The notes beneath the pieces are model-generated. The model was not told the origin of the DNA, made no database searches, and was given only the letters and a program-made list of their open reading frames with translations. Below are positions 30,247-48,765 of a stretch of DNA of 64,000 nucleotides, in pieces. The stretch comes from a virus: UHGV virus genome UHGV-1351408; one strand, 5' to 3'. Positions within the stretch are counted from its first letter, which is position 1, and each line of letters begins with the position of its first letter. The position numbers were made by a program, and so were the translations under genes.

Positions 30247-30288
30247 AAAAGAAACAAAAAAGGGGAAGACCTTTTAAAGTCTCCCCCT
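30247..30288 (-). terminator. rho-independent terminator after tube gene
   Basis: Hairpin GGGGAAGAC/GTCTCCCC; T-run on the minus strand. Confidence 0.55.
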
Positions 30289-30299
30289 TATAGGATTTA

Positions 30300-30746
30300 T
30301 TAAACACTTGACGCTGGAATTGTAGAAGTGTAGTCTAGCTTCTCACAACCAAAAATCCAAGTTTTAGAGTTCTGGTCACGACCAAGTTCAATCTGCGGTA
30401 ATTCCTGCAACCAAGCATTAATACCAGTTGCCAGAACAGAGCCTGATGGGTCGTAGATTACGAAGTTAGAAGAGATATCTTCTTCAAGTTCCATATTGTC
30501 TTGTTTAGCTTGAATTGCAGAAAGCATCTGATTAGAGAGAGAAGTCTGCATTAGCTCAATCTCAATAGTACCTGTCTTGTCTGCATTTCTTGTCAGAGCA
30601 ACCTGACCACCTGCACCTACAACTGGTGTAATAAGTGGTGATGTTCTCTGTAGACGTAAGAATGAATCTGGAGCAAAGCCTTCAATAGCAATGCCGTTCC
30701 AGCTACACACAACGTCTTTAGGGGAATATTGCTGATACATAGCCAT
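30300..30746 (-). CDS. tail tube protein (by size and position)
   Basis: 148 aa. Confidence 0.45.
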   Translation of the reverse strand: MAMYQQYSPKDVVCSWNGIAIEGFAPDSFLRLQRTSPLITPVVGAGGQVALTRNADKTGTIEIELMQTSLSNQMLSAIQAKQDNMELEEDISSNFVIYDPSGSVLATGINAWLQELPQIELGRDQNSKTWIFGCEKLDYTSTIPASSV

Positions 30747-30761
30747 TCCAATTTACCTCTA

Positions 30762-32114
30762 TTATTCGTAAGCCACTGTACCTTTCAAGTCAACATCCAA
30801 GATAGCCCCTGCTAAGATACCTGCGAAGGTAACATCTTTCAGGATACGAGCTTTCTTGTCTGCCAAAGCAACTTGAGAGGCTTTAGGAACATTAACTGTG
30901 TAAGATGACAGGAAGTTTCTGTTGACTGCTCTTTGTAGAGAGGTTTCAATGACTTGACGAATACGGGTAATACCAGTATCATCATAAGTAATCTTACCAC
31001 CCTTCTGGTTAATTAGCAAGTCTCTCAGAGAAGTTTTCAGGTCTGATTCCAACCAGTCAACGCCACGGATGATATCAATCCATTCCCCACCAGAAGTAAT
31101 CCCTCTACGAACCACTGGAACACCACCATCAAGGTCAATAAAGTTACAGTGACGTGCATCTAAAGCTGACTTCTGAATACTTGTCAGAGGTCTCTTATTA
31201 GCTGGCTGTAGAGAAGCAGCTACACCAGTCAACTGAGCATTACCCCAAGCAATTGACCCTGCATCGTATGGAGCACCGTAAGCAATGTATGCCATCTCTG
31301 GATAGTCTTCTGCTGCTGTGTGATGCCACAAGCAAACTGTGCGGGTATACATACTCTTAGCAAGCTGTGCTGGAACATCGTTTGCACTGTTTAATTCTGT
31401 ACCTTGTAGTGCTGATACATCAGAGTTAGCAGTGAAGAAGATTTTCTTACGAGCCTGAATCTCAGAAGCCATTGCTAAGACAAACTGTTGAGTTCTGTCT
31501 TCTGCTGCAATGAAATACCAGTCAGTTGAATAAGCTTCAATAGCTGCTAGAGCAGTTGATGCTGTATCGGCAGTTGTGCTTGCAATAGATACAGTCTGTG
31601 CTGTAGTTGTTACTTTCACAAAGTCATTATCACCAGCTTTAGTGATAATCATTGTGGCAGAACCACCGCTACCAGTTACGTTCACAGAAACCTTATCTTT
31701 AATTGTTGGGTCAGCTTCAATCTGTGTTTTGAACTGTTGCAAAACTTTCTCAGCAGTATCTGATTCCACTGCTGTATACTGATATGGTTGAGAAATTCCA
31801 CCGCCAGCAGCTACAGTAATTGAGTAGTCTGTACTTTCGGTAACAGCATCAGGAATTGATACAGTATACTGCATAGCACGTCTACCAATATAAAGCTGAG
31901 TTACTTTAGGAGTCTGACTCCAAAGTTGTTTAGCAGCCTTATATGCAGCAGAGTTTTCATCGAAATCTTCAGCAACTTCAGTTAAGGAAGTGTAACCACG
32001 CACTCTTTCTTCAAAGTTATCTGTTGAAGCTAAGAATAGTGGCAGCCCAAAACCTTCTCTTGTAGTTCCTGCGGTGTTCAATGTAATATCTACATTAACA
32101 ATTGGATTCCACAT
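30762..32114 (-). CDS. tail sheath protein (by size and position)
   Basis: 450 aa, directly upstream of tube. Confidence 0.45.
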   Translation of the reverse strand: MWNPIVNVDITLNTAGTTREGFGLPLFLASTDNFEERVRGYTSLTEVAEDFDENSAAYKAAKQLWSQTPKVTQLYIGRRAMQYTVSIPDAVTESTDYSITVAAGGGISQPYQYTAVESDTAEKVLQQFKTQIEADPTIKDKVSVNVTGSGGSATMIITKAGDNDFVKVTTTAQTVSIASTTADTASTALAAIEAYSTDWYFIAAEDRTQQFVLAMASEIQARKKIFFTANSDVSALQGTELNSANDVPAQLAKSMYTRTVCLWHHTAAEDYPEMAYIAYGAPYDAGSIAWGNAQLTGVAASLQPANKRPLTSIQKSALDARHCNFIDLDGGVPVVRRGITSGGEWIDIIRGVDWLESDLKTSLRDLLINQKGGKITYDDTGITRIRQVIETSLQRAVNRNFLSSYTVNVPKASQVALADKKARILKDVTFAGILAGAILDVDLKGTVAYE

Positions 32115-32714
32115 TTATTTTACCCCTTTGGAGTCTACATCTAGATGGATAGTATATTCTGGCGGCTCTTGTCCTTCTTCGTAAACTAATTCACCATCCA
32201 CAATGACACGCTCAATAATACTTCCACGTTCATCTTTCAGGACTGAATTTTTTACAAGAGTTACAACAAGAGGTGCAGAATTTTCGAAATCTGTATTGAG
32301 ATAAGTATAGTCATTCGGGATTGCTCCAGTATCTAGTACTGTAGCCCCTGTTTCTTCAAGGATTAAATCTCTGACTGAACTCATCTCTAATCGTTGTTTA
32401 AGCTCAAGCATGATGCTGTGAGCACCCTTACCATTTACCGTAATCAATACAGGAATCTGAAAAGCAATTCTGTAGCAAACTACATCATCTTCAACAAATT
32501 TATCAAGAACCCAACCATAAGGTGTTGCAGCATCTTGACAATATACGGTAATGAATGGCTGGTCAGGTTTTAAACCTTTGTCATTTGAGTTATCAGAAGG
32601 GTAAGCTCTAATTACATTTGGTCTATTATTTTTATCACGAGCTAGTCTGTGACCAATAACATCCACTAAGGTTCTAACTAGACCTTTTTCAAGTTCTGCT
32701 GTTTCTAACTGCAT
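32115..32714 (-). CDS. head-tail joining / tail completion protein
   Basis: 199 aa; position. Confidence 0.4.
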   Translation of the reverse strand: MQLETAELEKGLVRTLVDVIGHRLARDKNNRPNVIRAYPSDNSNDKGLKPDQPFITVYCQDAATPYGWVLDKFVEDDVVCYRIAFQIPVLITVNGKGAHSIMLELKQRLEMSSVRDLILEETGATVLDTGAIPNDYTYLNTDFENSAPLVVTLVKNSVLKDERGSIIERVIVDGELVYEEGQEPPEYTIHLDVDSKGVK

Positions 32715-33090
32715 TCATTTTATCCCTTCTAATAATGATATATTCATAATGGGACGTATGGGCTAATTGCTGTGACCAATCCATAGTCATAAATACTTCA
32801 TACTCATGACCATCAATCATAACAATATCAGACTCATTCCACTCTACATCATCTGAAGTTCTAAGTTTATATGTGGTATACAGGATTCTTGTATCGGTAA
32901 GCCTAATACCTTCCGGTAAAGCAATCTGTGTACCATTCTTTACAGAACCTTTGATATATGGCTGGATATTACCTTTGCAGTTAACCTCTACAATATCTTG
33001 TGAAGCTACCCAATCACCATCATCATTATAATAACCATCTTCAGAGACTTTACGCTTTACTACAAAGCTGTGTCTGTTTAAGAGTCTCAT
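32689..33090 (-). CDS. head-tail joining protein
   Basis: 133 aa; position. Confidence 0.4.
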   Translation of the reverse strand: MRLLNRHSFVVKRKVSEDGYYNDDGDWVASQDIVEVNCKGNIQPYIKGSVKNGTQIALPEGIRLTDTRILYTTYKLRTSDDVEWNESDIVMIDGHEYEVFMTMDWSQQLAHTSHYEYIIIRRDKMNAVRNSRT

Positions 33091-33569
33091 TTTTTAATAC
33101 CCTTCTTAGTAGAAATTTTATAAGCAAGGTTGTCTCTTAAGTCACCTGTCTCAACAAGAGGTGCATTAAAGCCTTTTTTCTTGACTGTGGAAGGTGCGTT
33201 AGGAGGGAGGATAGCAGAATTACCAAAACCTCTTTTAATTGCCTTTTGAGCATTCTTTGCAAATGCTTCTAAGGTATTTGAAGGGTCTGTGTTGAGACTG
33301 CTAAGTTGCTTATATAGATTCTTCTTAGTCTGCTCTAACAAGGTCTGTTTGTTTAGCATCATAGTGATTTCAAACAACCTACGATATACTTTACCAGAAG
33401 CTGAGGGAACCCCAATAACTTCTTGTAAATACATTAAAGCAGGATAAGAAAAACCAGAGCTATGTTGACCTTGTTCTTGAAAATACCCAACTTGAGCATT
33501 AGCCGTTTGCAAGTTCTTCATAGCCCCGACTAATTTTGCTCTAGCGGGGTGAATAACCCTTTTAACCAT
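33087..33569 (-). CDS. head completion protein
   Basis: 160 aa; position. Confidence 0.4.
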   Translation of the reverse strand: MVKRVIHPARAKLVGAMKNLQTANAQVGYFQEQGQHSSGFSYPALMYLQEVIGVPSASGKVYRRLFEITMMLNKQTLLEQTKKNLYKQLSSLNTDPSNTLEAFAKNAQKAIKRGFGNSAILPPNAPSTVKKKGFNAPLVETGDLRDNLAYKISTKKGIKK

Positions 33570-34018
33570 TATTCATCTCGCTCGATAATAAATACGCCAT
33601 TAACACGGTTGCAGTAATCTCTGCCTTCGTATCTGGCAGCATCACCATATTCTGTGTATTTCTTGACAGAGCAAGGATTCTGACGACGCATATCAATGTC
33701 GCACTGATTAATACCACCTGCATAGGGTAGTCCTGAAACAGAGCTTTTAACAAGGTCGTCATAAACAGCTTTCAGAGATTTGAATCTGGAAGAGTTACGT
33801 AAATAAACACCACCAACCTTCTCATCTCCCATCTTGGCTACTTGAAAGAGTAAATATTTAAGAGCTTTGATGGCTGCTTTCTTTTCATCCTTTCCAGATT
33901 CTAGATAGAACCACTCTAGCACAGACTGCTCAATAAGAATTTCATCATTATTAGTGTCTGTGCAGAGGATTCTTACTCTATCAAGAGGGTTATTGGCTGG
34001 GTCGCCTGTATAACACAT
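33569..34018 (-). CDS. head completion / DNA-packaging protein
   Basis: 149 aa; position. Confidence 0.4.
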   Translation of the reverse strand: MCYTGDPANNPLDRVRILCTDTNNDEILIEQSVLEWFYLESGKDEKKAAIKALKYLLFQVAKMGDEKVGGVYLRNSSRFKSLKAVYDDLVKSSVSGLPYAGGINQCDIDMRRQNPCSVKKYTEYGDAARYEGRDYCNRVNGVFIIERDE

Positions 34019-41284: not shown

Positions 41285-41360
41285 TGGAGAATCCGAAGGG
41301 ACTCGAACCCTTATAAACCTGTTTTGCAGACAGGCACATAGCCATTTCTGTCACGGATTC
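41285..41360 (-). tRNA. tRNA-Cys(GCA)
   Basis: Acceptor GAATCCG/CGGATTC, T-loop TTCGAGT, anticodon loop CTGCAAA, U73, CCA encoded. Confidence 0.7.
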
Positions 41361-41364
41361 AAAT

Positions 41365-41457
41365 TGGAGGAAGATACCAGACTTGAACTGGTACACCGAT
41401 TTCTCAGTTACTGGCAGTTTAGCAAACTGCTCCCTTACCTTTTAGGGTTAATCTTCC
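41365..41457 (-). tRNA. tRNA-Ser(GCT), long variable arm
   Basis: 93 nt; anticodon stem GCAGT/ACTGC, loop TTGCTAA. Confidence 0.6.
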
Positions 41458-41458
41458 A

Positions 41459-42193
41459 TTATTTCTGTAATGCGTTCTTCATTTCTGGTGTTGCAATAGT
41501 GTCAATCACACCAGTTTTACAAGCATCGTCAAACCAGTCTGGTAAGATACCTGCTAAGAACCCATTGATATTCGTTTTAAGGTACTCTGCAATAAGGGCA
41601 GCTTCTTCTTCAATCATCTGCACAACTTCATCTGCATAAGCTGTAATCTTCGAAATACCTTCATTAATCTTACTAACAGCTTGGTTAGCTAAATCAGAAA
41701 TAGTATCAAGACCTTTGTCAATAGCATCTTGTAAGTCACTTAATACATCATTAACACCGTCTAGTGCACTGTTAATCATATCAATAGCTTTTTGACCATA
41801 CTCTGTAGCAACACCCATAATACCACTAAATGGTGTACAACCGACTTGTTCACCTGCTGCACCCATAACATTAGAATAACCTTTTGCTACCTGCATACGT
41901 GATGAAAACTCATCAATGGACTTTTGACCGTAATCCGTCAGCGTTTTGGTAGTTGATGTAGTACTTGTCAGACTCGTTGTAAAGCTGTTAAGCAGAACTG
42001 TTGTAAGTCCAGCAGCAACAAGTTTATCCTTTATTGTAGGGTCTGTTACAGAGCTAATAGAGCTTACAAGTGATGTAGAGGCAGCTACGGTTCCACCGAG
42101 AACTGCTGCACCAGTAATAAGGGGATTAGAAAACCCTCTACCGGTTTTTAAGAGATTAAAAATCTCCTTACCTTGTTCTGTCATCTCTTTCAT
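41459..42193 (-). CDS. hypothetical Ser/Thr-rich protein inside the tRNA array
   Basis: ORF 41459-42256; start moved to MKEMTEQ (AAAGGTG RBS) to avoid tRNA-Phe. Confidence 0.45.
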   Translation of the reverse strand: MKEMTEQGKEIFNLLKTGRGFSNPLITGAAVLGGTVAASTSLVSSISSVTDPTIKDKLVAAGLTTVLLNSFTTSLTSTTSTTKTLTDYGQKSIDEFSSRMQVAKGYSNVMGAAGEQVGCTPFSGIMGVATEYGQKAIDMINSALDGVNDVLSDLQDAIDKGLDTISDLANQAVSKINEGISKITAYADEVVQMIEEEAALIAEYLKTNINGFLAGILPDWFDDACKTGVIDTIATPEMKNALQK

Positions 42194-42209
42194 TAAGCAC
42201 CTTTGAAAT

Positions 42210-42286
42210 TGGTAGTCCAGTGGGATTTGAACCCTCTTCTCATGTTTTTCAGACACGCGCTTTAACCATATAAGCTACTTGGACTA
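42210..42286 (-). tRNA. tRNA-Phe(GAA)
   Basis: Acceptor TAGTCCA/TGGACTA, anticodon loop CTGAAAA. Confidence 0.6.
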
Positions 42287-42291
42287 TAAAT

Positions 42292-42367
42292 TGGGGTGAC
42301 CTACGGGATTTGAACCCGTATAGACCATGTTCACAGCATGGGTCATTACCATTTATGATAAGGCCAC
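42292..42367 (-). tRNA. tRNA-His(GTG)
   Basis: Anticodon loop CTGTGAA; extra 5' G and C73. Confidence 0.7.
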
Positions 42368-42398
42368 ATTTAAGGACTCTCGTAAGAACCCTTAGAAG

Positions 42399-42474
42399 TG
42401 GCAGCGGCATAAGGATTTGAACCTTAATAAGACAGCTTCAGAGACTGCTGCATTGCCAGTTATGCTATACCGCT
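42399..42474 (-). tRNA. tRNA-Gln(CTG)
   Basis: Loop CTCTGAA, G73. Confidence 0.5.
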
Positions 42475-42479
42475 AAATT

Positions 42480-42558
42480 TGGTACTCCATATCGGATTCG
42501 AACCGATACATAACACAGATTTTAAGTCTGGCCTCTCTGCCAATTGGAGTAATGGAGC
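42480..42558 (-). tRNA. tRNA with Leu anticodon TAA, short variable arm
   Basis: 79 nt; loop CTTAAAA; Leu-type D-loop AATTGGCAGAG; A73. Confidence 0.5.
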
Positions 42559-42560
42559 AT

Positions 42561-42636
42561 TGGCGGGGGATGTTGGAATTGAACCAACTTCTTCGATTTC
42601 AAAGACCGAGGTTTTAACCTTGTAAACTAATCCCCT
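42561..42636 (-). tRNA. tRNA-Gln(TTG)
   Basis: Anticodon stem TCGGT/ATCGA, loop CTTTGAA, G73. Confidence 0.55.
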
Positions 42637-42644
42637 TTAAATCT

Positions 42645-43202
42645 TTACTTTCTTAGTGGATGAATAAAGAATGCCAACATAACTCTTTCCCTTGAGAATG
42701 CTCTTTCTTCTGGGACAACACTTTTTAGCTTCCACCCAATATAAATTCTCCAGTAAAACTGTTTACCAAAGACTTTAATTGATGGGATAAAAGCGAATAA
42801 TCCCCAAGCATTGCTGTTCCACATTAGGAGATAACCTGTCTGATTATCTTCAGGGTTAGAACTTACGTTGATATTACCTTTCCACTTAGTAACATCTTTT
42901 ACATCTCTTCCTAACACATGGTAAGAGAAGTTATAAGCTTTGTTTCTCCAGAGCCAACCAACTCTCTGCATATAGACACCAAGCTTACCAATCTTTCTAA
43001 TCTTAGCCCATCGTTCGATATGACCTTCATCACCATCAATTGGGTTGTCATAAGTTTCCATCCATCTGAACCCGAAAGGTAAGTGTCCTTTCTTCTCACT
43101 GTAGAATGGAACTACAAAAGGTGCTAAGATAACTGCTAAGATTGCTGCAAATGGCTCTAATAAAGCTAAGAAAATCCATGAAGCATACTTCAAATATCTC
43201 AT
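42645..43202 (-). CDS. membrane protein inside the tRNA array
   Basis: 185 aa; N-terminal hydrophobic segment WIFLALLEPFAAILAVILAPFVVPF. Confidence 0.45.
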   Translation of the reverse strand: MRYLKYASWIFLALLEPFAAILAVILAPFVVPFYSEKKGHLPFGFRWMETYDNPIDGDEGHIERWAKIRKIGKLGVYMQRVGWLWRNKAYNFSYHVLGRDVKDVTKWKGNINVSSNPEDNQTGYLLMWNSNAWGLFAFIPSIKVFGKQFYWRIYIGWKLKSVVPEERAFSRERVMLAFFIHPLRK

Positions 43203-43441
43203 TGTCTAATCCTAGTAAGGAGGTAAACATTATTATCTGTTTCTGAGTTTTCTGGTAAAGCTGTCTCAAAATTGACGCTTTTAAATTGTCTCCCACCAAA
43301 GTAATGACCAATAAATTTTTGTACTTTTATTGGGTCACATTCCCAGCCGACTTTCAAGAAAATGTGGGTATCTATAGTGGGAACCCTTACAAACTCAATA
43401 CTATTGGAATTTTCATGTTCAACGACGATTAATGTTTGCAT
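43199..43441 (-). CDS. hypothetical protein
   Basis: 80 aa. Confidence 0.4.
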   Translation of the reverse strand: MQTLIVVEHENSNSIEFVRVPTIDTHIFLKVGWECDPIKVQKFIGHYFGGRQFKSVNFETALPENSETDNNVYLLTRIRQ

Positions 43442-43459
43442 AAATCTCTCTTATTTATC

Positions 43460-43535
43460 TGGCGCAGGATAAGGGACTTGAACCCCTATTAACAGCTTCG
43501 TAGACTGTTGCTCTATCCATTTGAACTAATCCTGC
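43460..43535 (-). tRNA. tRNA-Arg(ACG)
   Basis: Acceptor GCAGGAT/ATCCTGC, loop CTACGAA. Confidence 0.7.
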
Positions 43536-43650
43536 TTACCTACGAGAACACCATACAGTTTTTCACAAACTTTGCTTTTACGTCTGTTTAGATATGACGC
43601 TCTAAACTTTTTTTGCAATTGACTTATTACTCATAGTGTTCTCCTAAAAT

Positions 43651-43728
43651 TGGTGTTCCAAGACGGATTCGAACCGTCACTAGTACAAGGTTTGAGCTTG
43701 CATCCTCTGCCAATTGGGATACTGGAAC
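43651..43728 (-). tRNA. tRNA with Leu anticodon CAA, short variable arm
   Basis: 78 nt; loop CTCAAAC; D-loop AATTGGCAGAGG; A73. Confidence 0.5.
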
Positions 43729-43729
43729 A

Positions 43730-43804
43730 TGGTACTCACTAAAGGACTTGAACCTTTTTCTTCATCTTGTAAGGGTGATGTTTTACCATATAAACTAAGC
43801 GAGT
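43730..43804 (-). tRNA. tRNA-Val(TAC)
   Basis: Loop CTTACAA. Confidence 0.5.
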
Positions 43805-43900
43805 GTGAAAGAGGTCTGAAGTTGTGCCACTAACTCAACTCCGTGGAATTTGTTACGGTCTTCAGTTGACTCAAAGTGGTCTTTCACTTGACCTCTGAAT

Positions 43901-43976
43901 TGGTGCTCCCACAAGGATTCGAACCCTGATAAGTTGCTTACAAGGCAACCGTAATAGCCAATTATACGATAGGAGC
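43901..43976 (-). tRNA. tRNA-Thr(TGT)
   Basis: Anticodon stem GTTGC/GCAAC, loop CTTGTAA. Confidence 0.7.
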
Positions 43977-43983
43977 ATTAATT

Positions 43984-44058
43984 TGGAGCATCCAGAGGGA
44001 ATCGAACCCTCAACCTCAGTTTGGAAGACTGTAATTTTCCCGTTTAAACTATGGATGC
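43984..44058 (-). tRNA. tRNA-Gly(TCC)
   Basis: Acceptor GCATCCA/TGGATGC, loop CTTCCAA. Confidence 0.65.
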
Positions 44059-44064
44059 ACTAAT

Positions 44065-44140
44065 TGGTGGAGTCACTGAGAATTGAACTCAGTTCCCAAG
44101 TTTGCAAAACTCGAATTTTAACCATATAAACTATGACCCC
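44065..44140 (-). tRNA. tRNA-Ala(TGC)
   Basis: Loop TTTGCAA. Confidence 0.6.
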
Positions 44141-44145
44141 AATTT

Positions 44146-44221
44146 TGGTACAGGTGGAGGGAATTGAACCCATCGTCTTACTGATTAAGAGTCAGCCGCA
44201 TAACCATTTTGCTACACCTGC
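44146..44221 (-). tRNA. tRNA-Lys(CTT)
   Basis: Loop CTCTTAA. Confidence 0.55.
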
Positions 44222-44228
44222 ATTAATT

Positions 44229-44305
44229 TGGTACACCTAGAGAGATTCGAACTCACACTGAGCAGATTCTAAGTCTGCTGCCTCTACCAATTGGGCTATA
44301 GGTGC
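44229..44305 (-). tRNA. tRNA with Leu anticodon TAG, short variable arm
   Basis: 77 nt; anticodon stem GCAGA/TCTGC, loop CTTAGAA; D-loop AATTGGTAGAGG; A73. Confidence 0.55.
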
Positions 44306-44560
44306 ATTAAATCTTTTTAGAGAACTTCTAAGAACCTAAGCAACAAGGTTCCACAACAAGCTGTAATAACCTTAGAAGCCCTCTAAAAAGACCTAATTTG
44401 GTCTTTGCATAGTCTTGTTTAATCCGGTGACTAGAACCTTTGGAGAGCTTGATATTATCTCTTCTCCGTGACACCTACTAGGTGCTTTATCAGTGTGTAC
44501 GACAATACACGAGGGATAAACCGAAAATGCGAGCAAGCATGGACGGTGTAAATCTTATTA

Positions 44561-44650
44561 GGCGGTAAGTAAAGGAGTCGAACCCTCACCGTATCTCTAC
44601 AGTGGCAACAGTTTTCAAGACTGTTTGGCTGCCATTAGCCGCTACCTACC
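44561..44650 (-). tRNA. tRNA-Ser(TGA), long variable arm
   Basis: 90 nt; anticodon stem ACAGT/ACTGT, loop CTTGAAA; 3' CC encoded, terminal A not. Confidence 0.6.
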
Positions 44651-44663
44651 CCTAATAAGACTT

Positions 44664-44746
44664 TGGCATGGGACGGAGGAGTTGAACCCCTTTGAAACGG
44701 TTTTGGAGGCCGTTGCTCATGCCTTAGAGTCTTAACATCGTCCCAC
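44664..44746 (-). tRNA. tRNA-like element, anticodon unassigned (CCA/Trp possible)
   Basis: 83 nt with good acceptor (GTGGGAC/GTCCCAT) and T-arm, but D/anticodon region does not fold canonically. Confidence 0.3.
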
Positions 44747-44888
44747 ATTATAATTCGAAGCTTACCGTATTATCTCAACACTGTAAAGCCCCTTCTCAGA
44801 TTATTTACATGTTCTGGAAAACATGAGATACAGACCACCTCCCTACAGGAAGACCCGCTTAGGTCGTCTAAGTAATCTGCTAACTAAT

Positions 44889-44965
44889 TGGCACACCCTA
44901 CAGGATTCGAACCTGTAACTAACGATTTAGAAGACCGTTGCTCTATCCAATTGAACTAAGGGTGC
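44889..44965 (-). tRNA. tRNA-Arg(TCT)
   Basis: Anticodon stem ACGGT/ATCGT, loop CTTCTAA. Confidence 0.7.
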
Positions 44966-45302
44966 ATTAATCTTTAAAGACTCTCTTAGAAAGCCCTTAA
45001 AGATGCCCACCTTATTAATCATACCGTGGGCTAGTACGCCAAATTCTTTGATGAGGGATTGGAATACCTCACTGGTGTTTAGCCTATCAAGCTACTGCCA
45101 GAAAAACATTGTCGTTTGCATTTATTTTAAATTTGCAAAATAGACGCTACGCAACGAAAACTATTCAGAATATGTACAACAAATTTCCCCACATTGTGTT
45201 ACGTCTAACGCTCATGTATTGGTGTTTGAATTATACATATTATGAATTATTTTTAGTTACTATAAAGTAGTCACATCTTAATGTCAACAACTTTATTGAA
45301 AT

Positions 45303-45378
45303 TGGTACTGGTAGGTGGAATCGAACCACCGATGTTCCCTTATCAGGGGAGTGTTATAACCTTCTTAACTATACCAGC
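45303..45378 (-). tRNA. tRNA-Ile(GAT)
   Basis: Loop CTGATAA. Confidence 0.6.
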
Positions 45379-45379
45379 T

Positions 45380-45456
45380 TGGAGGTTCAGATGGGAATCG
45401 AACCCACATTCATAGGGCTTATGAAACCCCTGCATTACCTTATCTGCGACTGAACC
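45380..45456 (-). tRNA. tRNA-Met(CAT)
   Basis: Loop TTCATAA; GGG/CCC run in anticodon stem. Confidence 0.55.
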
Positions 45457-45534
45457 ATAATAAGTACCCTAGTTAGAGAAACTGTTGAGTGGGTGTTTCC
45501 AGCCGCGCAGGTGTTTCTCAGTTAAGGGTGAATT

Positions 45535-45610
45535 TGGTAGAAGTGGAGGGATTCGAACCCATCGCCTGTCAGATTAAAAGTCTGCCGCATCACCATTCTG
45601 CTACACTTCC
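45535..45610 (-). tRNA. tRNA-Lys(TTT)
   Basis: Loop CTTTTAA. Confidence 0.6.
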
Positions 45611-45814
45611 ATTAAATTATCTTTGTAGATAAGCTACCCAGACTTGCTTAAGGTCTGTAGCGATGTGCCTTTTTGGGTTTAAATCTAGAATTTACCCTTT
45701 CACCCTTTGTGGTCGCATACTCACAGGTAAGCTTAATAACTTATCTACAAAGATAATTACCAGACCGTTGTTTATCATCTTAAGTGCTACCATTACACCA
45801 ACTCGACATCTGCC

Positions 45815-45838
45815 GAGTGAAGGAATCGAACCTTCGCC
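45815..45838 (-). other. isolated tRNA T-arm-like module (GAAGG-TTCGATT-CCTTC) without an acceptor stem
   Basis: Canonical T-arm, but no 5' partner for the would-be acceptor within 100 nt; lies inside a conserved-box spacer element. Confidence 0.35.
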
Positions 45839-46068
45839 TTTTCTTTACCGGAGAAATAGATTGTTTAAGTTTTGCTGTAAACGGTCTTCTGTAAATTTGT
45901 TGAGCCAGACCAAGTTTTAAATTTTTTCAAAATTAAATTGGCTTGAAAATATCATACGTACTTGCTGAATTTGGTCTTCTGCTCCTTTAAAGAATACTCG
46001 TAAGAACTCTTTAAGGGAGGGGCTAAATAGCCCTCTCAAAACATCATTTTGAAATACTTATTATAATT

Positions 46069-46145
46069 TGGCGGCTACGATGAGACTTGAACTCACATCA
46101 TCTCCCGTGACAGGGGAGTATTTTCTCCAGTTAAACTACATAGCC
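46069..46145 (-). tRNA. tRNA-Asp(GTC)
   Basis: Anticodon stem CTCCC/GGGAG, loop CTGTCAC. Confidence 0.7.
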
Positions 46146-46150
46146 TCTAT

Positions 46151-46238
46151 TGGTGTGCCGTGTAGGAGTCGAACCTACCGAGTCTCAATGACAAGGGATT
46201 TACAGTCCCCACCGCTACCATCTACGGGATAACGACAC
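46151..46238 (-). tRNA. tRNA-Tyr(GTA), long variable arm
   Basis: 88 nt; loop CTGTAAA. Confidence 0.7.
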
Positions 46239-46247
46239 ATTTTAATT

Positions 46248-46324
46248 TGGCGGTTAGTCAGGGATTCGAACCCTGTGCCATTCGCTTAACAGGCGACCGC
46301 ACATACCTTATGTGCTTCCTAACC
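46248..46324 (-). tRNA. tRNA-Asn(GTT)
   Basis: Loop CTGTTAA. Confidence 0.6.
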
Positions 46325-46400
46325 TTAATACATTACCAGACCGTGTTTTTCTTTTATCCGCAAAAAGTAGTTTGTTGCTGAATACGGTCTTCTGTAAAAT

Positions 46401-46477
46401 TGGAGGCGGGTGCAGGAGTCGAACCTGCCGATACCATGCTAATGAGACATGTGAGACGCCCTTTCTCTATACCCGCA
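46401..46477 (-). tRNA. tRNA with CAT anticodon (Met or Ile2)
   Basis: Loop CTCATTA; 1-72 mismatch. Confidence 0.45.
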
Positions 46478-46568
46478 ATTCTTAATGACCAGACCAAATC
46501 TCTTCTTTGTCCGATTTACCTTCAGATGAATAAGATTAAGTTTGCTGTAATTGGTCTTCTGTCAAAAC

Positions 46569-46646
46569 TGGCGTTCCAGAAGGGATTTGAACCCTCAGAT
46601 ATCCACTTTGAAAGAGTGGTGACTTTACCATTTTGTCTACTGGAAC
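46569..46646 (-). tRNA. tRNA-Glu(TTC)
   Basis: Anticodon stem CCACT/AGTGG, loop CTTTCAA. Confidence 0.7.
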
Positions 46647-46653
46647 ATTAATT

Positions 46654-46730
46654 TGGTCTCTGTTGGAGGACTTGAACCTCCGGCCTTACCGCCCCAAACG
46701 GAACGCTCTACCAAGCTGAGCTAAACAGAG
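46654..46730 (-). tRNA. tRNA-Pro(TGG)
   Basis: D-arm AGCTCAGCTTGGTAGAGC, loop TTTGGGG. Confidence 0.7.
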
Positions 46731-46896: not shown

Positions 46897-48312
46897 TTAC
46901 CAGATGTAACGGTCAAGCATTACTGCTTTGAGCATTACGCTGATTGGGTCAAACTTCTCACCACCAAGCAGAGCTTTTAAAGTGGCTGGAGAGAACCCTG
47001 ATACCATTGCTACACCATTATCCTTAACAGATACTTCGCAAGTACCATTACGGTTTGCTAAGTACCAGAATACTAGTTGTGGCATTTCGTATCCAGCTTT
47101 TTTGTACTTACTCTGAATTGCTTCAAAGTTTGTACGACCATTTGCACCATCAACCTGATTAAACTCCATATCAGAGAAGATAATAAGCTTACTTGGCATA
47201 TCTTTCTGAGTCAAGTTGTTTCTCTTACCTGTTTCAAGAATGCGGTCAAAAGCTGCTTGTAAGTTAGTTGAGCCATATTCAACGTGTCGCATCACCTGAC
47301 GATGACGGTTTCGTAAATCACCACTCAGTTCGATGAAGTGAGGGTTTGTTGAATAAACCATTAACTCATTCTTAAAGCAACCTGTATTGCGTTCTGCTAC
47401 ATACAAGGCAAGTGATACACCAATATCCAGAGCAGTAATGGAGCCAAAATTCACCCAAGACATTGAACTTGATACATCAGACATACACAAGATGTTTTCA
47501 CCTTCTGCCATCCAGTTTGGTAGTGCTTTCCACTGCTCATTAGCAACATCTGCATTACCATACTTGACAGATTTAATCACATCGTATGGGTAAACAGCAC
47601 CAGCGTTAATCTTAGTCTCACCTTTTGATAAGGACTCGATGTAAGCTTTGTAACGCTCTCCATCTTTACGGTTAAACAGTTTTTGGTAACGTGCAGCAGC
47701 AAGTGAAGGAATCTTACTGTAGTCAATCTTACCAAACTCATTAGCAGAGATTTTTTGCTCAACTGTATCAGATAGTGCAGACAACAGTGTGCGGTACTCT
47801 TTCTCACTCAAGTTGGCAAACTTGCAGAAACGTTTTACAAACTGCTTATGACGTGGTTTGACTCGTGGCAACCACTTAGCCGCCAAACCTGCTGTTGCAG
47901 GGTCTAGTAATGCTGCTTCTAAATGTTTGAAGGCATCTGTCTCGAAACGAGTACCTACGAAGATTTTGAAGTCATCAAAACGACCAAGTTCTGCAATCTT
48001 ATCCATAATGCGAAGAACCTGCGTAGACTCTAAAACTTTGTCTTCAATTGCTTGAAGCAAAACAGTTCTGAAGGCTTTACGCTCACCCATACCTTCTCGT
48101 ACATCTCGCATATGAAGCAAAATACGAACTGCAACATCAACATCCTCACGCAAAGCTTTGTAGAACAGGTCTGGTAAGATTTCTACGTTGCTACGGCTTG
48201 AACCAGCAGCTTTGTAAAAGTCTACAAGAGCAGACATTGATGAAGTATGGTTTACAGCACCATTTTCAGTTCGACCTGCATGAAGGTGCGCATGTTTAAA
48301 TAATTCGCTCAT
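46897..48312 (-). CDS. vWA-domain protein with MIDAS motif (possibly Ro60/TROVE-like)
   Basis: 471 aa; helical N-terminal part; C-terminal vWA features: DxSxS (CMSDVSSSMS), later STN and FSDME. Confidence 0.6.
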   Translation of the reverse strand: MSELFKHAHLHAGRTENGAVNHTSSMSALVDFYKAAGSSRSNVEILPDLFYKALREDVDVAVRILLHMRDVREGMGERKAFRTVLLQAIEDKVLESTQVLRIMDKIAELGRFDDFKIFVGTRFETDAFKHLEAALLDPATAGLAAKWLPRVKPRHKQFVKRFCKFANLSEKEYRTLLSALSDTVEQKISANEFGKIDYSKIPSLAAARYQKLFNRKDGERYKAYIESLSKGETKINAGAVYPYDVIKSVKYGNADVANEQWKALPNWMAEGENILCMSDVSSSMSWVNFGSITALDIGVSLALYVAERNTGCFKNELMVYSTNPHFIELSGDLRNRHRQVMRHVEYGSTNLQAAFDRILETGKRNNLTQKDMPSKLIIFSDMEFNQVDGANGRTNFEAIQSKYKKAGYEMPQLVFWYLANRNGTCEVSVKDNGVAMVSGFSPATLKALLGGEKFDPISVMLKAVMLDRYIW

Positions 48313-48393
48313 ATTTTACTCTCTTCTCTCATTTGTTTGTTGATGTGACAGACTTTAGAGCAACTTTGTAGAGTCTGTCAACACCTTTTAAGA

Positions 48394-48765
48394 TTATTTT
48401 TTGAGAGTCGCTACAGCAGAGAACGTTGGTTTGTTATCTGTCTGTTGTTGACCACCATTATCAGGAGTCTTCTTAGTGTCTGCTGCAAGTGCTTTCATCT
48501 CACCTGCTGAGTGAGTAAAGATAGTTTTACCGACCTCAATCATACTCTTGATGGTTACGTCATCTGTGTTTAACCCGAACTCTGCAAGCTTAGCCGCGTC
48601 CCTTGTAACAATCGCCTCAAACAGCTTTGCAGCGAACTCAGCAGAATTATCAATGGTCAGTTGAGCTTTTACGAGCGAGCTTTTGTTACGAGAGCCTTTT
48701 GGTCTTCCAGATGGGTTTCCAGACTGGCCTTTTTTAAACTGGCCTTTGTTTGTTCTGTTTTTCAT
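48394..48765 (-). CDS. hypothetical basic protein with AT-hook-like GNPSGRPKG motif
   Basis: 123 aa. Confidence 0.5.
   Translation of the reverse strand: MKNRTNKGQFKKGQSGNPSGRPKGSRNKSSLVKAQLTIDNSAEFAAKLFEAIVTRDAAKLAEFGLNTDDVTIKSMIEVGKTIFTHSAGEMKALAADTKKTPDNGGQQQTDNKPTFSAVATLKK

What the first reader, a model, noticed from the sequence alone, without database searches (positions are those of the whole stretch)
46897..48312. vWA/MIDAS-domain protein encoded directly upstream of the tRNA operon promoter
The 471-aa protein has a helical N-terminal half and a C-terminal vWA domain with an intact DxSxS motif (DVSSSMS) plus downstream Thr and Asp positions. Its N-terminal domain is shorter than a full TROVE domain, so the Ro60 assignment is tentative. 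A metal-dependent adhesion domain next to a tRNA array has no obvious structural or replication role.
Basis: inference. Interest (0 to 1): 0.6.

Follow-up and report, generated by a model that had tools for sequence, protein, structure and literature searches.

The report
Phage Ro60-like protein plus Y-RNAs
The gene encodes a phage version of the ring-shaped RNA-binding protein Ro60, and the tRNA cluster just downstream hides four small RNAs that look like its Y-RNA partners. A near-identical protein in phage Bas63 is already reported to defeat a bacterial defence system, but I found no earlier description of the RNA partners.

Summary
In detail: a 471-aa ORF (46897-48312, minus strand) with a helical N-terminal half, a C-terminal vWA domain with an intact MIDAS motif, and a 26-tRNA array directly downstream on the same strand.

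The tentative Ro60 reading is supported.
- The vWA half matches a Ro60 profile (hhalign E 2.5e-6).
- PHROG 850 contains both this protein and a true phage Ro60.
- By sequence it is Pfam DUF2828+DUF7788, not TROVE.

The window is a Felixounavirus. The protein is 97% identical to Bas63 gp130, which a 2024 preprint describes as Ro60-like, sitting upstream of the tRNAs, and countering the Ppl defence system. The protein-level finding is therefore already known.

New here are four elements (45753-46567) that share a covarying bulged helix. One carries a permuted tRNA-like module in the order reported for bacterial YrlA Y RNAs. Covariance models find such RNAs, always on the gene's strand, beside homologs in 34 of 75 distant phage loci. 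Rfam's YrlA model independently hits two of them. Homologs in many phage lineages lie inside tRNA or tmRNA clusters.

The parts
46897..48312 (-). CDS, 471 aa: Ro60-like protein (Pfam DUF2828 + DUF7788; PHROG 850). It is the ortholog of Bas63 gp130 (97% identity).
47518..48312 (-). N-terminal all-helical half (residues 1 to about 265). In the model it superposes on the HEAT-repeat ring of Ro60.
   Evidence: There is no sequence-level TROVE match.
46948..47493 (-). C-terminal vWA domain (residues 274-455, DUF7788), related by profile to the Ro60 vWA domain.
47464..47478 (-). MIDAS DxSxS motif (D279, S281, S283). T349 and D381 complete the site.
48352..48381 (-). Promoter-like site upstream of the gene (TTGACA-18-TAAAGT).
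   Evidence: A promoter is also annotated here in phage AYO145A.
46757..46877 (-). Two promoter-like sites in the 166-nt spacer between the stop codon and tRNA-Pro. A 12-bp hairpin overlaps the first.
   Evidence: consensus matches only
46482..46567 (-). E1: short Y-RNA-like element (outer helix UGAC/GUCA, AGA/G internal loop, inner helix AGACCAA/UUGGUCU, UACAGCAA box).
   Evidence: R2 47.7 bits, E 5e-6
46329..46400 (-). E2: short Y-RNA-like element (inner helix AGACCGU/ACGGUCU).
   Evidence: R2 47.8 bits
45898..45987 (-). E3: short Y-RNA-like element (outer helix GAGC/GCUC).
   Evidence: R2 36.8 bits, E 9e-4
45753..45897 (-). E4: YrlA-like RNA. The same closing helix encloses a V hairpin, a T arm (GAAGGUUCGAUUCCUUC), a 7-bp closed 'acceptor' stem and a D arm (GUGUAAUGGUAGCAC).
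   Evidence: R1 134.6 bits, R2 115.4 bits
41285..46730 (-). Array of 26 tRNA genes co-oriented with the gene. E1-E4 lie inside it.
48394..48765 (-). Upstream gene (123 aa, DUF5681 / phrog_4114). It is syntenic with the Ro60-like gene in Ounavirinae-like contigs, and no role is inferred.

Best explanation
The gene encodes a divergent, compact Ro60-type protein: a helical-repeat ring closed by a vWA/MIDAS domain. Four small RNAs transcribed with the adjacent tRNA array are its likely Y-RNA partners.

All four RNAs share a conserved bulged closing helix, which I infer to be the protein-binding site by analogy with the Y-RNA stem bound by Ro60. One of them (E4) also carries a tRNA-like elbow module, as bacterial YrlA does.

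My inference is that during infection the protein and these RNAs form ribonucleoprotein particles that act on structured RNA. The most likely way is by engaging host tRNA-recognising enzymes or 3'-to-5' exoribonucleases such as PNPase, as shown for bacterial Rsr/Y RNA and for Thermus phage phiLo Ro60.

Shown by others for the 97%-identical Bas63 gp130: it protects the phage from the Ppl defence system and can transfer that protection to T7.

Shown here by computation: the fold, the vWA-profile homology, the conserved structure of the RNAs, and their synteny with the gene. Inferred: protein-RNA binding, the host partner, and the link between the RNP and Ppl evasion.
For: Fold:
- The model has pLDDT 89.9 and pTM 0.89.
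- The top 11 Foldseek hits are full-length Ro60.

Sequence:
- hhalign against a TROVE alignment gives E 2.5e-6 across the vWA domain.
- The MIDAS residues are invariant.
- True Ro60 Bxz1 gp220 falls in the same PHROG 850.
- Cluster-L mycobacteriophage homologs are annotated 'Ro-like RNA binding protein'.

RNA partners:
- The box pair occurs 4 times, against 0.25 expected, all on the gene's strand and 330-1145 nt downstream.
- The helices covary between copies.
- E4 has the V-T-AS-D order described for YrlA. Its T and D arms are conserved, and its AS stem is fully compensated in Moogleviruses.
- RNAalifold finds 16 of 22 pairs with double changes.
- 90.3% of cells are paired, against 66% in shuffles and 36-48% in slid controls. 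On 34 sequences the figure is 93.8%, with 21 of 22 pairs compensatory.
- R2 finds clean hits in 34 of 75 distant loci, in 19 of them within 400 nt of the gene, and all 58 hits are on the gene's strand.
- The Y-like RNA is the nearest RNA gene to the protein gene in 12 of 23 loci, against 3.5 expected.
- Rfam's own YrlA model hits the element next to LeBron gp53 (E 2e-5) and L089_a (E 1e-5), both beside DUF2828-type proteins.
- There are no non-tRNA hits in the T4, T5 or Bxz1 controls.

Context:
- 40 of 75 distant loci have tRNA or tmRNA genes within 10 kb, and all 498 such genes are co-oriented with the homolog.
- In Listeria phage List-36 the homolog lies near RtcB and an RNA ligase.

Function: Bas63 gp130 data. 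phiLo Ro60 binds Y-like RNAs and host PNPase.
Against: - No Pfam TROVE or vWA_Ro60 hit. The ring halves alone give no significant profile match (E 0.14). Pairwise BLASTP to Bxz1 Ro60 is not significant.
- The ring is about 90 residues shorter than in Ro60. I could not read the model coordinates, so ring closure and the charge of the central cavity were not checked.
- gp130 alone, from a plasmid or inserted into T7, restores T7 growth on Ppl hosts. Anti-Ppl activity therefore does not require the phage's Y-like RNAs.
- Rfam's YrlA model does not detect the window's own elements, even in a 921-nt search.
- E1-E3 are short and AU-rich, with modest folding z-scores (-0.7 to -2.2).
- 41 of 75 distant loci have no detectable element.
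- I chose the boundaries of the training sequences partly by eye, and many loci are related. The statistics therefore overstate independence.
- R2 can give false positives at junctions of tandem tRNAs (T4). Such overlaps were excluded from my counts.
Confidence: 0.68

Rival explanations
1. Protein-only anti-defence factor. The Ro60-like protein neutralises Ppl (and perhaps other host factors) by direct protein-protein contact, for example through its MIDAS face. The neighbouring RNAs are unrelated to this activity or only modulate it.
For: gp130 expressed alone from a plasmid, or inserted in T7, restores T7 plaques on Ppl hosts and even raises plating above the no-defence control. vWA/MIDAS domains are classic protein-interaction modules, and the best vWA-only fold matches are the MDN1 and Ku80 interaction domains.
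Against: The family occurs in 710 phage records infecting Proteobacteria, Firmicutes, Actinobacteria, Campylobacter and cyanobacteria, which is much wider than one E. coli defence gene would explain. Its conserved co-orientation and adjacency with tRNA, tmRNA and Y-like RNA genes is not explained by a protein-only role. E. coli RNAs could substitute as ligands in the T7 experiment.
Confidence: 0.3
2. Quality-control or maturation chaperone for the phage's own tRNA precursors. The ring captures misfolded or unprocessed pre-tRNA 3' ends and hands them to host exonucleases. On this view E1-E4 are processing spacers or degenerate tRNA remnants rather than dedicated partners.
For: The gene sits at the head of the tRNA array here and inside tRNA clusters in many lineages. 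Ro60 binds misfolded non-coding RNAs through its cavity (PDB 2i91 and 9nfa are among the top hits). Other spacers of the array are also strongly structured.
Against: E4's T and D arms are conserved and its AS stem is compensated across genera, which indicates selection on the RNA itself rather than decay of a tRNA. The same closing helix with its UACAGCAA box recurs in unrelated phages, and three loci without any tRNA still carry an element next to the gene. The Bas63 tRNAs are mostly non-essential.
Confidence: 0.2
3. Scaffold of an RNA-repair system. The RNP presents nuclease-damaged tRNAs to phage or host end-healing and sealing enzymes (Pnk, RtcB, RNA ligase), countering anticodon nucleases.
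For: In bacteria, rsr and yrlA are described as part of the RtcB/RtcA RNA-repair operon (papers listed; established knowledge). In Listeria phage List-36 the homolog lies 1.3 kb from a bona fide RtcB (1e-59) and close to an RNA ligase. The jumbo-phage survey links ROT/TROVE proteins to RNA repair. Bas63 encodes a polynucleotide kinase.
Against: No RNA ligase or RtcB neighbour recurs across the 75 loci; the best protein neighbour is present in only 17 of 75, and these are ClpP, DnaJ and homing endonucleases. None lies next to the gene in the window. Ppl is not known to cut tRNA.
Confidence: 0.15
4. An ordinary vWA protein with a structural, adhesion or MoxR-type chaperone role and no RNA-binding ring.
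For: It has an intact MIDAS motif. Some records annotate it only as 'vWFA protein'.
Against: The full-length fold match is to Ro60, not to vWA-only proteins. There is no AAA+ MoxR partner in the neighbourhood. The gene lies outside the structural module and is dispensable on standard hosts in Bas63, where its deletion mutant was viable and showed a plaque defect on the Ppl strain.
Confidence: 0.02

Closest known systems
Bas63 (Escherichia phage JohannRWettstein) gp130, PhageMaP preprint, bioRxiv 10.1101/2024.10.10.617714
   Same: This is the ortholog: 97% identical, 471 aa, with the same position directly upstream of tRNA-Pro and tRNA-Glu. The preprint reports it as structurally Ro60-like and as a counter to Ppl that can be transferred to T7.
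   Different: The preprint only speculated that some annotated tRNAs might be Y RNAs. The four box elements lie between the tRNAs, and E4 is annotated there as an opposite-strand hypothetical protein (bas63_0137). The preprint's proposed mechanism, inhibition of DNA degradation by Ppl, is untested.
Bacterial Ro60 (Rsr) with YrlA/YrlB or Yrn1 Y RNAs (S. Typhimurium, D. radiodurans; Chen et al. 2014, PMC4201824)
   Same: Ring plus vWA fold. Y RNAs are encoded within a few kb on the same strand. One Y RNA has a tRNA-like domain in the order V, T, AS, D, alongside shorter Y RNAs that share the stem.
   Different: The protein is DUF2828/DUF7788, not Pfam TROVE/vWA_Ro60, and its ring is about 90 aa shorter. 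The stem motif is CAGAAGACC...GGUCUGG followed by UACAGCAA, rather than GNCGAAN0-1G. Rfam's YrlA model misses the window copies. The elements are embedded in a phage tRNA array rather than an rtcBA operon.
Thermus phage phiLo Ro60 with Yrl1/Yrl2 (NAR 2025, PMC12135203; PDB 9kop, 9l5y)
   Different: phiLo Ro60 is deposited as a TROVE-domain protein, and identity to it is only 15-16%. PNPase binding was not tested for the Felixounavirus protein.
Mycobacteriophage Bxz1 gp220 (cluster C Ro60) and its YrlA
   Same: It falls in the same PHROG 850, has the same RefSeq product name 'RNA-binding protein', and has a Y RNA just upstream.
   Different: gp220 is Pfam TROVE + vWA_Ro60. BLASTP to the window protein is not significant. 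Its Y RNA is not detected by my models R1 and R2.
Stable tRNA-like RNAs of unknown function in the T5 and T4 tRNA regions (T5 RNA1, RNA2, RNA3; T4 rnaC, rnaD)
   Same: They are small stable non-tRNA RNAs interspersed with phage tRNA genes.
   Different: T4 and T5 did not appear among the phage records with a DUF2828-type homolog, and their RNAs are not matched by R1 or R2. I regard the resemblance as one of context only.

Membership tests
Ro60 / TROVE family (Pfam PF05731 TROVE + PF25045 vWA_Ro60) | Significant match to the TROVE domain HMM | tested here: not met
   hmmscan at E <= 1 returns only DUF7788 and DUF2828. hhalign of the N-terminal halves gives E 0.14. A profile search against PDB gives Ro60 hits only at E 0.6-2.
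Ro60 / TROVE family | Ro60-type vWA domain with a MIDAS motif at the C-terminus | tested here: met
   hhalign against the TROVE/Ro60 alignment gives 88.8%, E 2.5e-6 over 193 columns, aligning DxSxS, T and D. The MIDAS residues are invariant. Pfam, however, names the domain DUF7788, not vWA_Ro60.
Ro60 / TROVE family | Fold: helical-repeat ring closed by the vWA domain | tested here: met
Ro60 / TROVE family | Y RNA gene(s) close by on the same strand | tested here: met
   E1-E4 lie 330-1145 nt downstream on the same strand. Such elements were found in 34 of 75 distant loci. Rfam YrlA hits lie beside two DUF2828-type proteins.
Ro60 / TROVE family | Binds the Y RNA stem and single-stranded RNA ends; tethers an exoribonuclease | not testable with these tools
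   This needs biochemistry. It is shown only for Rsr and phiLo Ro60 in the literature.
Pfam DUF2828 + DUF7788 architecture / PHROG 850 | Matches above the curated thresholds | tested here: met
   DUF7788 148.9 bits (cut-off 27.1) and DUF2828 102.2 bits (cut-off 29). phrog_850 E 1.2e-183 over the full length.
YrlA Y RNA (Rfam RF02553), for element E4 | Score at or above the Rfam gathering threshold (69 bits) | tested here: not met
   No YrlA hit in the window at gathering threshold, at E <= 5, or at E <= 10 in a 921-nt search. Relatives L089_a and the LeBron element reach 40.9 and 39.8 bits. The known Bxz1 YrlA also reaches only 32.5 bits.
YrlA Y RNA, for element E4 | Architecture: terminal stem, V hairpin, conserved T stem-loop, variable AS stem-loop, conserved D stem-loop | tested here: met
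   MFE folds, the RNAalifold consensus and covariation counts, compared with the published description.
Anti-defence protein (anti-Ppl), as Bas63 gp130 | Orthology to the experimentally tested protein | tested here: met
   97% identity over 470 residues with identical synteny. The phenotype itself is taken from the preprint and was not tested here.
MoxR-associated vWA co-chaperone | Adjacent AAA+ MoxR ATPase gene | tested here: not met
   None is present in the window neighbourhood or among recurrent neighbours.

The most novel reading that the evidence does not exclude
Divergent Ro60-type proteins of the DUF2828/DUF7788 family, paired with YrlA-like tRNA-mimic RNAs, are a widespread and so far unrecognised accessory module of phage tRNA and tmRNA clusters. 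Homologs occur in 710 sequenced phages, including Felix O1-like, Aeh1, large Vibrio phages, Listeria, Campylobacter and cluster-L mycobacteriophages. The module would work as an RNA-based counter-defence device: the tRNA-like RNA tethers the ring to host RNA enzymes or nucleases, or acts as a decoy for them. Ppl evasion in E. coli would be the first phenotype of that general mechanism.
Probability: 0.3. Interest if true: 0.8.

Novelty: new variant of a known kind. Interest (0 to 1): 0.62.

Why it matters
Ro60-Y RNA particles are conserved from bacteria to humans, where Ro60 is a lupus and Sjogren autoantigen. Their physiological role in bacteria is still poorly defined, and genetic phenotypes are weak.

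This system offers four things together:
- a Ro60-type protein in an easily manipulated E. coli phage;
- a clear published plaque phenotype (Ppl evasion) for its ortholog;
- four candidate cognate RNAs within about 1.1 kb of the gene;
- hundreds of natural variants for comparison.

Whether, and how, a Ro60-Y RNA particle acts in phage-host conflict becomes directly testable.

The result also suggests that part of the non-coding 'spacer' sequence in phage tRNA arrays encodes functional tRNA mimics. At least one widely copied 'hypothetical protein' annotation (wV8 gp048, bas63_0137) probably covers an RNA gene on the other strand.

Tried and rejected
- Direct sequence searches found no Ro60. phmmer against PDB gave nothing. 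NCBIfam gave nothing useful. BLASTP against Bxz1 Ro60 was not significant. A profile search against PDB gave only sub-threshold Ro60 hits.
- hhalign restricted to the ring halves was not significant.
- A search for a conserved protein partner across 75 loci found only lineage-specific synteny (ClpP, DnaJ, homing endonucleases, DNA polymerase). The best neighbour family occurred in 17 of 75 loci.
- Rfam's Y_RNA and YrlA models on the window found no hit at any threshold.
- I tested the idea that an annotated tRNA is itself the Y RNA. The candidates I found are instead the inter-tRNA elements. The ARAGORN tRNA-Met at 46401-46477 is atypical, but I did not pursue it.
- I considered the idea that the E elements are chance repeats or junction artefacts and rejected it. 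They covary, and they recur in unrelated phages outside tRNA genes. R2 does, however, give one false positive at a T4 tRNA-Leu/tRNA-Gly junction.
- Literature searches for DUF2828, DUF7788 and YrlA found no description of this protein-RNA pairing. The supplement of Chen et al. 2014 listing its 22 phages is not held. I therefore cannot exclude that cluster-L mycobacteriophage elements were already listed there.
- The afdb50 fold library was unavailable. The model's coordinates could not be read, so no cavity or electrostatics analysis was possible.
Full report
**Observation.** The ORF at 46897-48312 on the minus strand is real and encodes 471 aa. In full-protein numbering it carries DVSSSMS at residues 279-285, with T349 and D381 completing a MIDAS site. 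These five residues are invariant in 43 homologs down to 40% identity. That alignment and the structure model lack Met1, so their numbers are one lower. ARAGORN finds 26 tRNA genes at 41285-46730, all on the same strand, and the first starts 166 nt after the stop codon. Rfam confirms 24 of them. Two sigma-70-like sites lie in the 166-nt spacer and one lies upstream of the gene. Such sites are no more frequent here than in shuffled sequence, so the promoters are plausible but not shown.

**Identity of the window and of the protein family.** The region is 98.6% identical to Felixounavirus genomes (fjerdesal, wV8, FelixO1-like). About 250 records carry the gene, annotated variously as 'vWFA protein', 'RNA-binding protein', 'DUF2828' or 'hypothetical'. 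Pfam assigns DUF7788 (residues 274-455, E 1.7e-43) and DUF2828 (E 3.9e-29), with no TROVE or vWA_Ro60 hit. PHROGs places it in phrog_850, 'RNA-binding protein', at E 1.2e-183. More than 2,500 90%-identity clusters are homologous. tblastn finds the family in 710 phage records from hosts as different as Escherichia, Vibrio, Aeromonas, Campylobacter, Listeria, Staphylococcus, Enterococcus, Bacillus, Mycobacterium, Sinorhizobium and Synechococcus. The cluster-L mycobacteriophage members are already annotated 'Ro-like RNA binding protein'.

**Is it Ro60-like?** Plain sequence searches do not reach Ro60. A family profile gives only sub-threshold hits, although four of the five hits are Ro60 or TROVE chains aligned at the MIDAS motif.

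An AlphaFold2 model built on the 43-sequence alignment is confident (pLDDT 89.9, pTM 0.89). The fold searches gave:
- Foldseek against the PDB returns, as its 11 best hits, only full-length Ro60 structures: Xenopus 2i91, 1yvp and 1yvr; human 9nfa, 9nep and 9nf8; and Thermus phage phiLo 9kop and 9l5y. E-values are 2e-8 to 9e-7 and TM-scores reach 0.67. The next hits, at E >= 2e-3, cover only the vWA domain.

I then fetched a bona fide phage Ro60, Bxz1 gp220 (TROVE 9e-50, vWA_Ro60 4e-54). It matches the same PHROG 850 at 2.8e-140. A profile built from its relatives aligns with the family profile at 88.8% probability and E 2.5e-6. The alignment runs over the last ring helix (GAVYPYDV against ARVHPINV), the whole vWA domain and the C-terminal VSGF motif.

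The ring halves alone give no significant profile match (E 0.14). The position is therefore:
- the vWA half is homologous to Ro60 by both sequence profile and fold;
- the ring half is related by predicted fold only;
- the protein belongs to a sister family (DUF2828/DUF7788), not to Pfam TROVE.

**Prior art.** A literature search turned up the PhageMaP preprint (PMC11482910). [quoted passage not shown] Its deletion gives tiny plaques on a strain carrying the Ppl defence gene, and complementation restores them. gp130 expressed from a plasmid or inserted in T7 rescues T7 on Ppl hosts. The authors speculate that some annotated tRNAs may be Y RNAs. I verified that bas63_0130 is a 471-aa gene followed by tRNA-Pro and tRNA-Glu, and that it is 97% identical to the window protein. 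How Ppl works is unknown.

**Genomic context across phages.** Among 75 distant IMG/VR loci (39-45% protein identity):
- 40 carry tRNA or tmRNA genes within 10 kb, 21 of them within 1 kb, and 8 carry a phage tmRNA;
- all 498 RNA genes found across the 80 loci scanned (the 75 distant loci plus 5 Felixounavirus loci) are on the same strand as the homolog;
- no protein neighbour recurs across lineages.

In Listeria phage List-36 the homolog lies between a tRNA array and a true RtcB (1e-59) plus an RNA ligase. This recalls the bacterial rsr-yrlA-rtcBA arrangement.

**Candidate Y RNAs in the window.** Reading the spacers of the tRNA array showed four copies of a box pair on the gene's strand: (A/G)CAGAAGACC(AA/GT)nU(U/A)CAGCAA ... 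(UU/AC)GGUCUGG. Only 0.25 copies are expected by chance. The elements are E1 at 46482-46567, E2 at 46329-46400, E3 at 45898-45987 and E4 at 45753-45897.

All four fold into the same closing structure:
- a 4-bp outer helix that covaries (UGAC/GUCA, UUAC/GUAA, GAGC/GCUC);
- an asymmetric internal loop (AGA opposite G);
- a 7-8 bp inner helix that also covaries (AGACCAA/UUGGUCU against AGACCGU/ACGGUCU).

E4 encloses, in order, a variable hairpin, a T arm with loop UUCGAUU, a 7-bp stem closed by a tetraloop, and a D arm. This is the V-T-AS-D order that Chen et al. describe for bacterial YrlA, where T and D are nearly invariant and AS is variable but foldable.

Every Felixounavirus locus examined has the four copies. 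In Moogleviruses the T and D arms are conserved, while the AS stem is entirely replaced by compensating pairs: ACUCGGC/GUCGAGU, ACACG/CGUGU and CCCUUC/GAAGGG.

**Extension to distant phages, and statistics.** Contigs encoding homologs at 51-56% identity carry the same design just downstream of the gene, with different but complementary closing helices and the UACAGCAA box. One of these contigs comes from an unrelated 143-kb phage and has three tandem copies between the gene and the first tRNA.

- On ten such sequences, RNAalifold recovers the outer helix, inner helix, T arm and AS stem, and 16 of 22 pairs show double changes.
- 90.3% of cells pair, against 66% in shuffles and 36-48% when partners are slid. 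The covariation score is 0.65 against 0.21, and no shuffle out of 500 reaches it.
- A covariance model (R1) built from these sequences finds significant full-length matches in 19 further loci not used to build it, all on the gene's strand.
- The enlarged alignment of 34 sequences has 93.8% of cells paired and 21 of 22 compensatory pairs. This alignment is fitted to the model, so it counts as support rather than independent proof.
- The second model (R2) detects all four window elements (115, 48, 48 and 37 bits). It finds clean, non-tRNA hits in 34 of 75 distant loci, in 19 of them within 400 nt of the gene. Three of these loci have no tRNA at all. All 58 hits are on the gene's strand.
- The Y-like RNA is the RNA gene nearest to the protein gene in 12 of 23 loci, against 3.5 expected (P about 1.5e-5). 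Because the loci are partly related, this overstates independence.

**Independent cross-check and controls.** In mycobacteriophage LeBron, which was not in any training set, R2 hits 100 nt downstream of the DUF2828-type gp53 (54 bits, E 6e-9). Rfam's curated YrlA model hits the same place (39.8 bits, E 2e-5, full length). Rfam's YrlA model also hits my element L089_a (40.9 bits, E 1e-5). These scores are below Rfam's gathering threshold of 69 bits, but so is the known Bxz1 YrlA at 32.5 bits. Rfam's YrlA model does not reach the window's own copies, so they connect to curated YrlA only through my models.

The negative controls were the T5, T4 and Bxz1 tRNA regions, 161 kb with roughly 65 tRNAs. 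They give no hit outside tRNA genes. The one hit is a false positive spanning the T4 tRNA-Leu/tRNA-Gly junction. Hits overlapping tRNAs were excluded from my counts.

**Interpretation.** The most economical reading is a phage Ro60-type ring protein with cognate Y-like RNAs that are co-transcribed with the tRNAs. E4 would be a YrlA-type tRNA mimic, and E1-E3 would be shorter YrlB-like partners sharing the presumed binding helix. By analogy with Rsr/Y RNA/PNPase and with phiLo Ro60, the particle probably engages host RNA-processing or RNA-decay enzymes.

What this has to do with Ppl is open. gp130 alone protects T7, so either the protein acts on Ppl or a host factor directly, or host RNAs can serve as ligands. 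The protein-only, tRNA quality-control and RNA-repair-scaffold models remain viable and are not mutually exclusive. A generic vWA role is excluded by the fold.

**Limits.** Everything about RNA binding is inferred. The structure is a prediction, and I could not read its coordinates to check ring closure. The RNA boundaries were first chosen by eye. The loci are not phylogenetically independent. Forty-one of the 75 distant loci show no element with the present models. The list of 22 phages in Chen et al. 2014 was not available, so part of the RNA finding may already be recorded for mycobacteriophages.

**Verdict.** The protein is already known, as Bas63 gp130. The system as a whole, a DUF2828-type Ro60 relative plus a divergent YrlA-like RNA class embedded in phage tRNA arrays, is a new variant of the Ro60-Y RNA kind. 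The candidate partner RNAs and the breadth of the association are the additions made here.

Noticed in passing
window 45663-45920 (+): An 85-aa ORF on the opposite strand overlaps the YrlA-like element E4. Its counterparts are annotated as hypothetical proteins in deposited genomes (wV8 gp048, AYO145A gp131, bas63_0137). The conserved RNA structure on the other strand suggests these protein annotations are spurious.
   Followed up: partly
window 45611-45751, 44966-45302, 44306-44560, 43536-43650, 43805-43900, 45457-45534 (minus strand): Other non-tRNA spacers of the array fold much better than mononucleotide shuffles (z -3.7 to -5.6). One example is a roughly 17-bp closing helix around 45611-45751. 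They may be further structured RNAs or processing elements.
   Followed up: no
window ~44661-44744 (minus strand): A tRNA-like element with a 7-bp acceptor stem (UGGGACG/CGUCCCA), a T arm and a 3' GCCA, but an aberrant D and anticodon region. It scores only 23 bits, and only as tRNA-Sec. Nearly the same sequence is present in the distant contigs L086-L088.
   Followed up: no
window 46401-46477 and 46151-46238 (minus strand): ARAGORN calls these tRNA-Met and tRNA-Tyr, but Rfam's tRNA model does not match them (15.9 and 29.6 bits, and only as tRNA-Sec). The Tyr gene is marked as a pseudo-tRNA in phage AYO145A. The 'tRNA-Met' lies exactly between elements E1 and E2.
   Followed up: partly
L016, L031, L039, L049, L051, L064, L068, L069: Eight distant phage loci carry a phage-encoded tmRNA a few kb from the Ro60-like gene on the same strand. 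ClpP-like protease and DnaJ genes are among the recurrent neighbours across the distant loci.
   Followed up: partly
L092 3426-3977 (Listeria phage List-36): A ROOL RNA (RF03087, 91.5 bits, just under the gathering score of 99.1, E 2.7e-17) lies between the tRNA array and the Ro60-like gene. RtcB, a metal-dependent phosphohydrolase, a tRNA amidotransferase and an RNA ligase follow downstream.
   Followed up: partly
L090 (T5, record positions 30284-33949) and L094 (T4, record positions 70908-71171): The T5 and T4 tRNA regions carry annotated stable or tRNA-like RNAs of unknown function (T5 RNA1, RNA2, RNA3, RNAI, RNAIII, RNAIV; T4 rnaC, rnaD). They are not matched by my models, and T4 and T5 did not appear among the records with a DUF2828-type gene. 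Model R2 gave a false positive at the T4 tRNA-Leu/tRNA-Gly junction.
   Followed up: partly
L089 11393-12652: An IS605 OrfB / TnpB-like gene (PF01385, PF07282) sits just beyond the tRNA/Y-like RNA cluster of a 143-kb phage contig.
   Followed up: no
GU169904.1 (Staphylococcus phage SA1), record positions 145270-146682: A record labelled as a Staphylococcus phage holds a copy 98% identical at protein level to this Felixounavirus gene. The record probably contains FelixO1-like sequence, through chimerism or contamination.
   Followed up: no
window 48394-48765 (-): The upstream 123-aa gene (DUF5681, phrog_4114, with a basic GNPxGRPKG N-terminus) keeps its position directly before the Ro60-like gene in contigs whose proteins are only 53-63% identical (L086-L088). 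It is not among the recurrent neighbours in more distant phages.
   Followed up: partly
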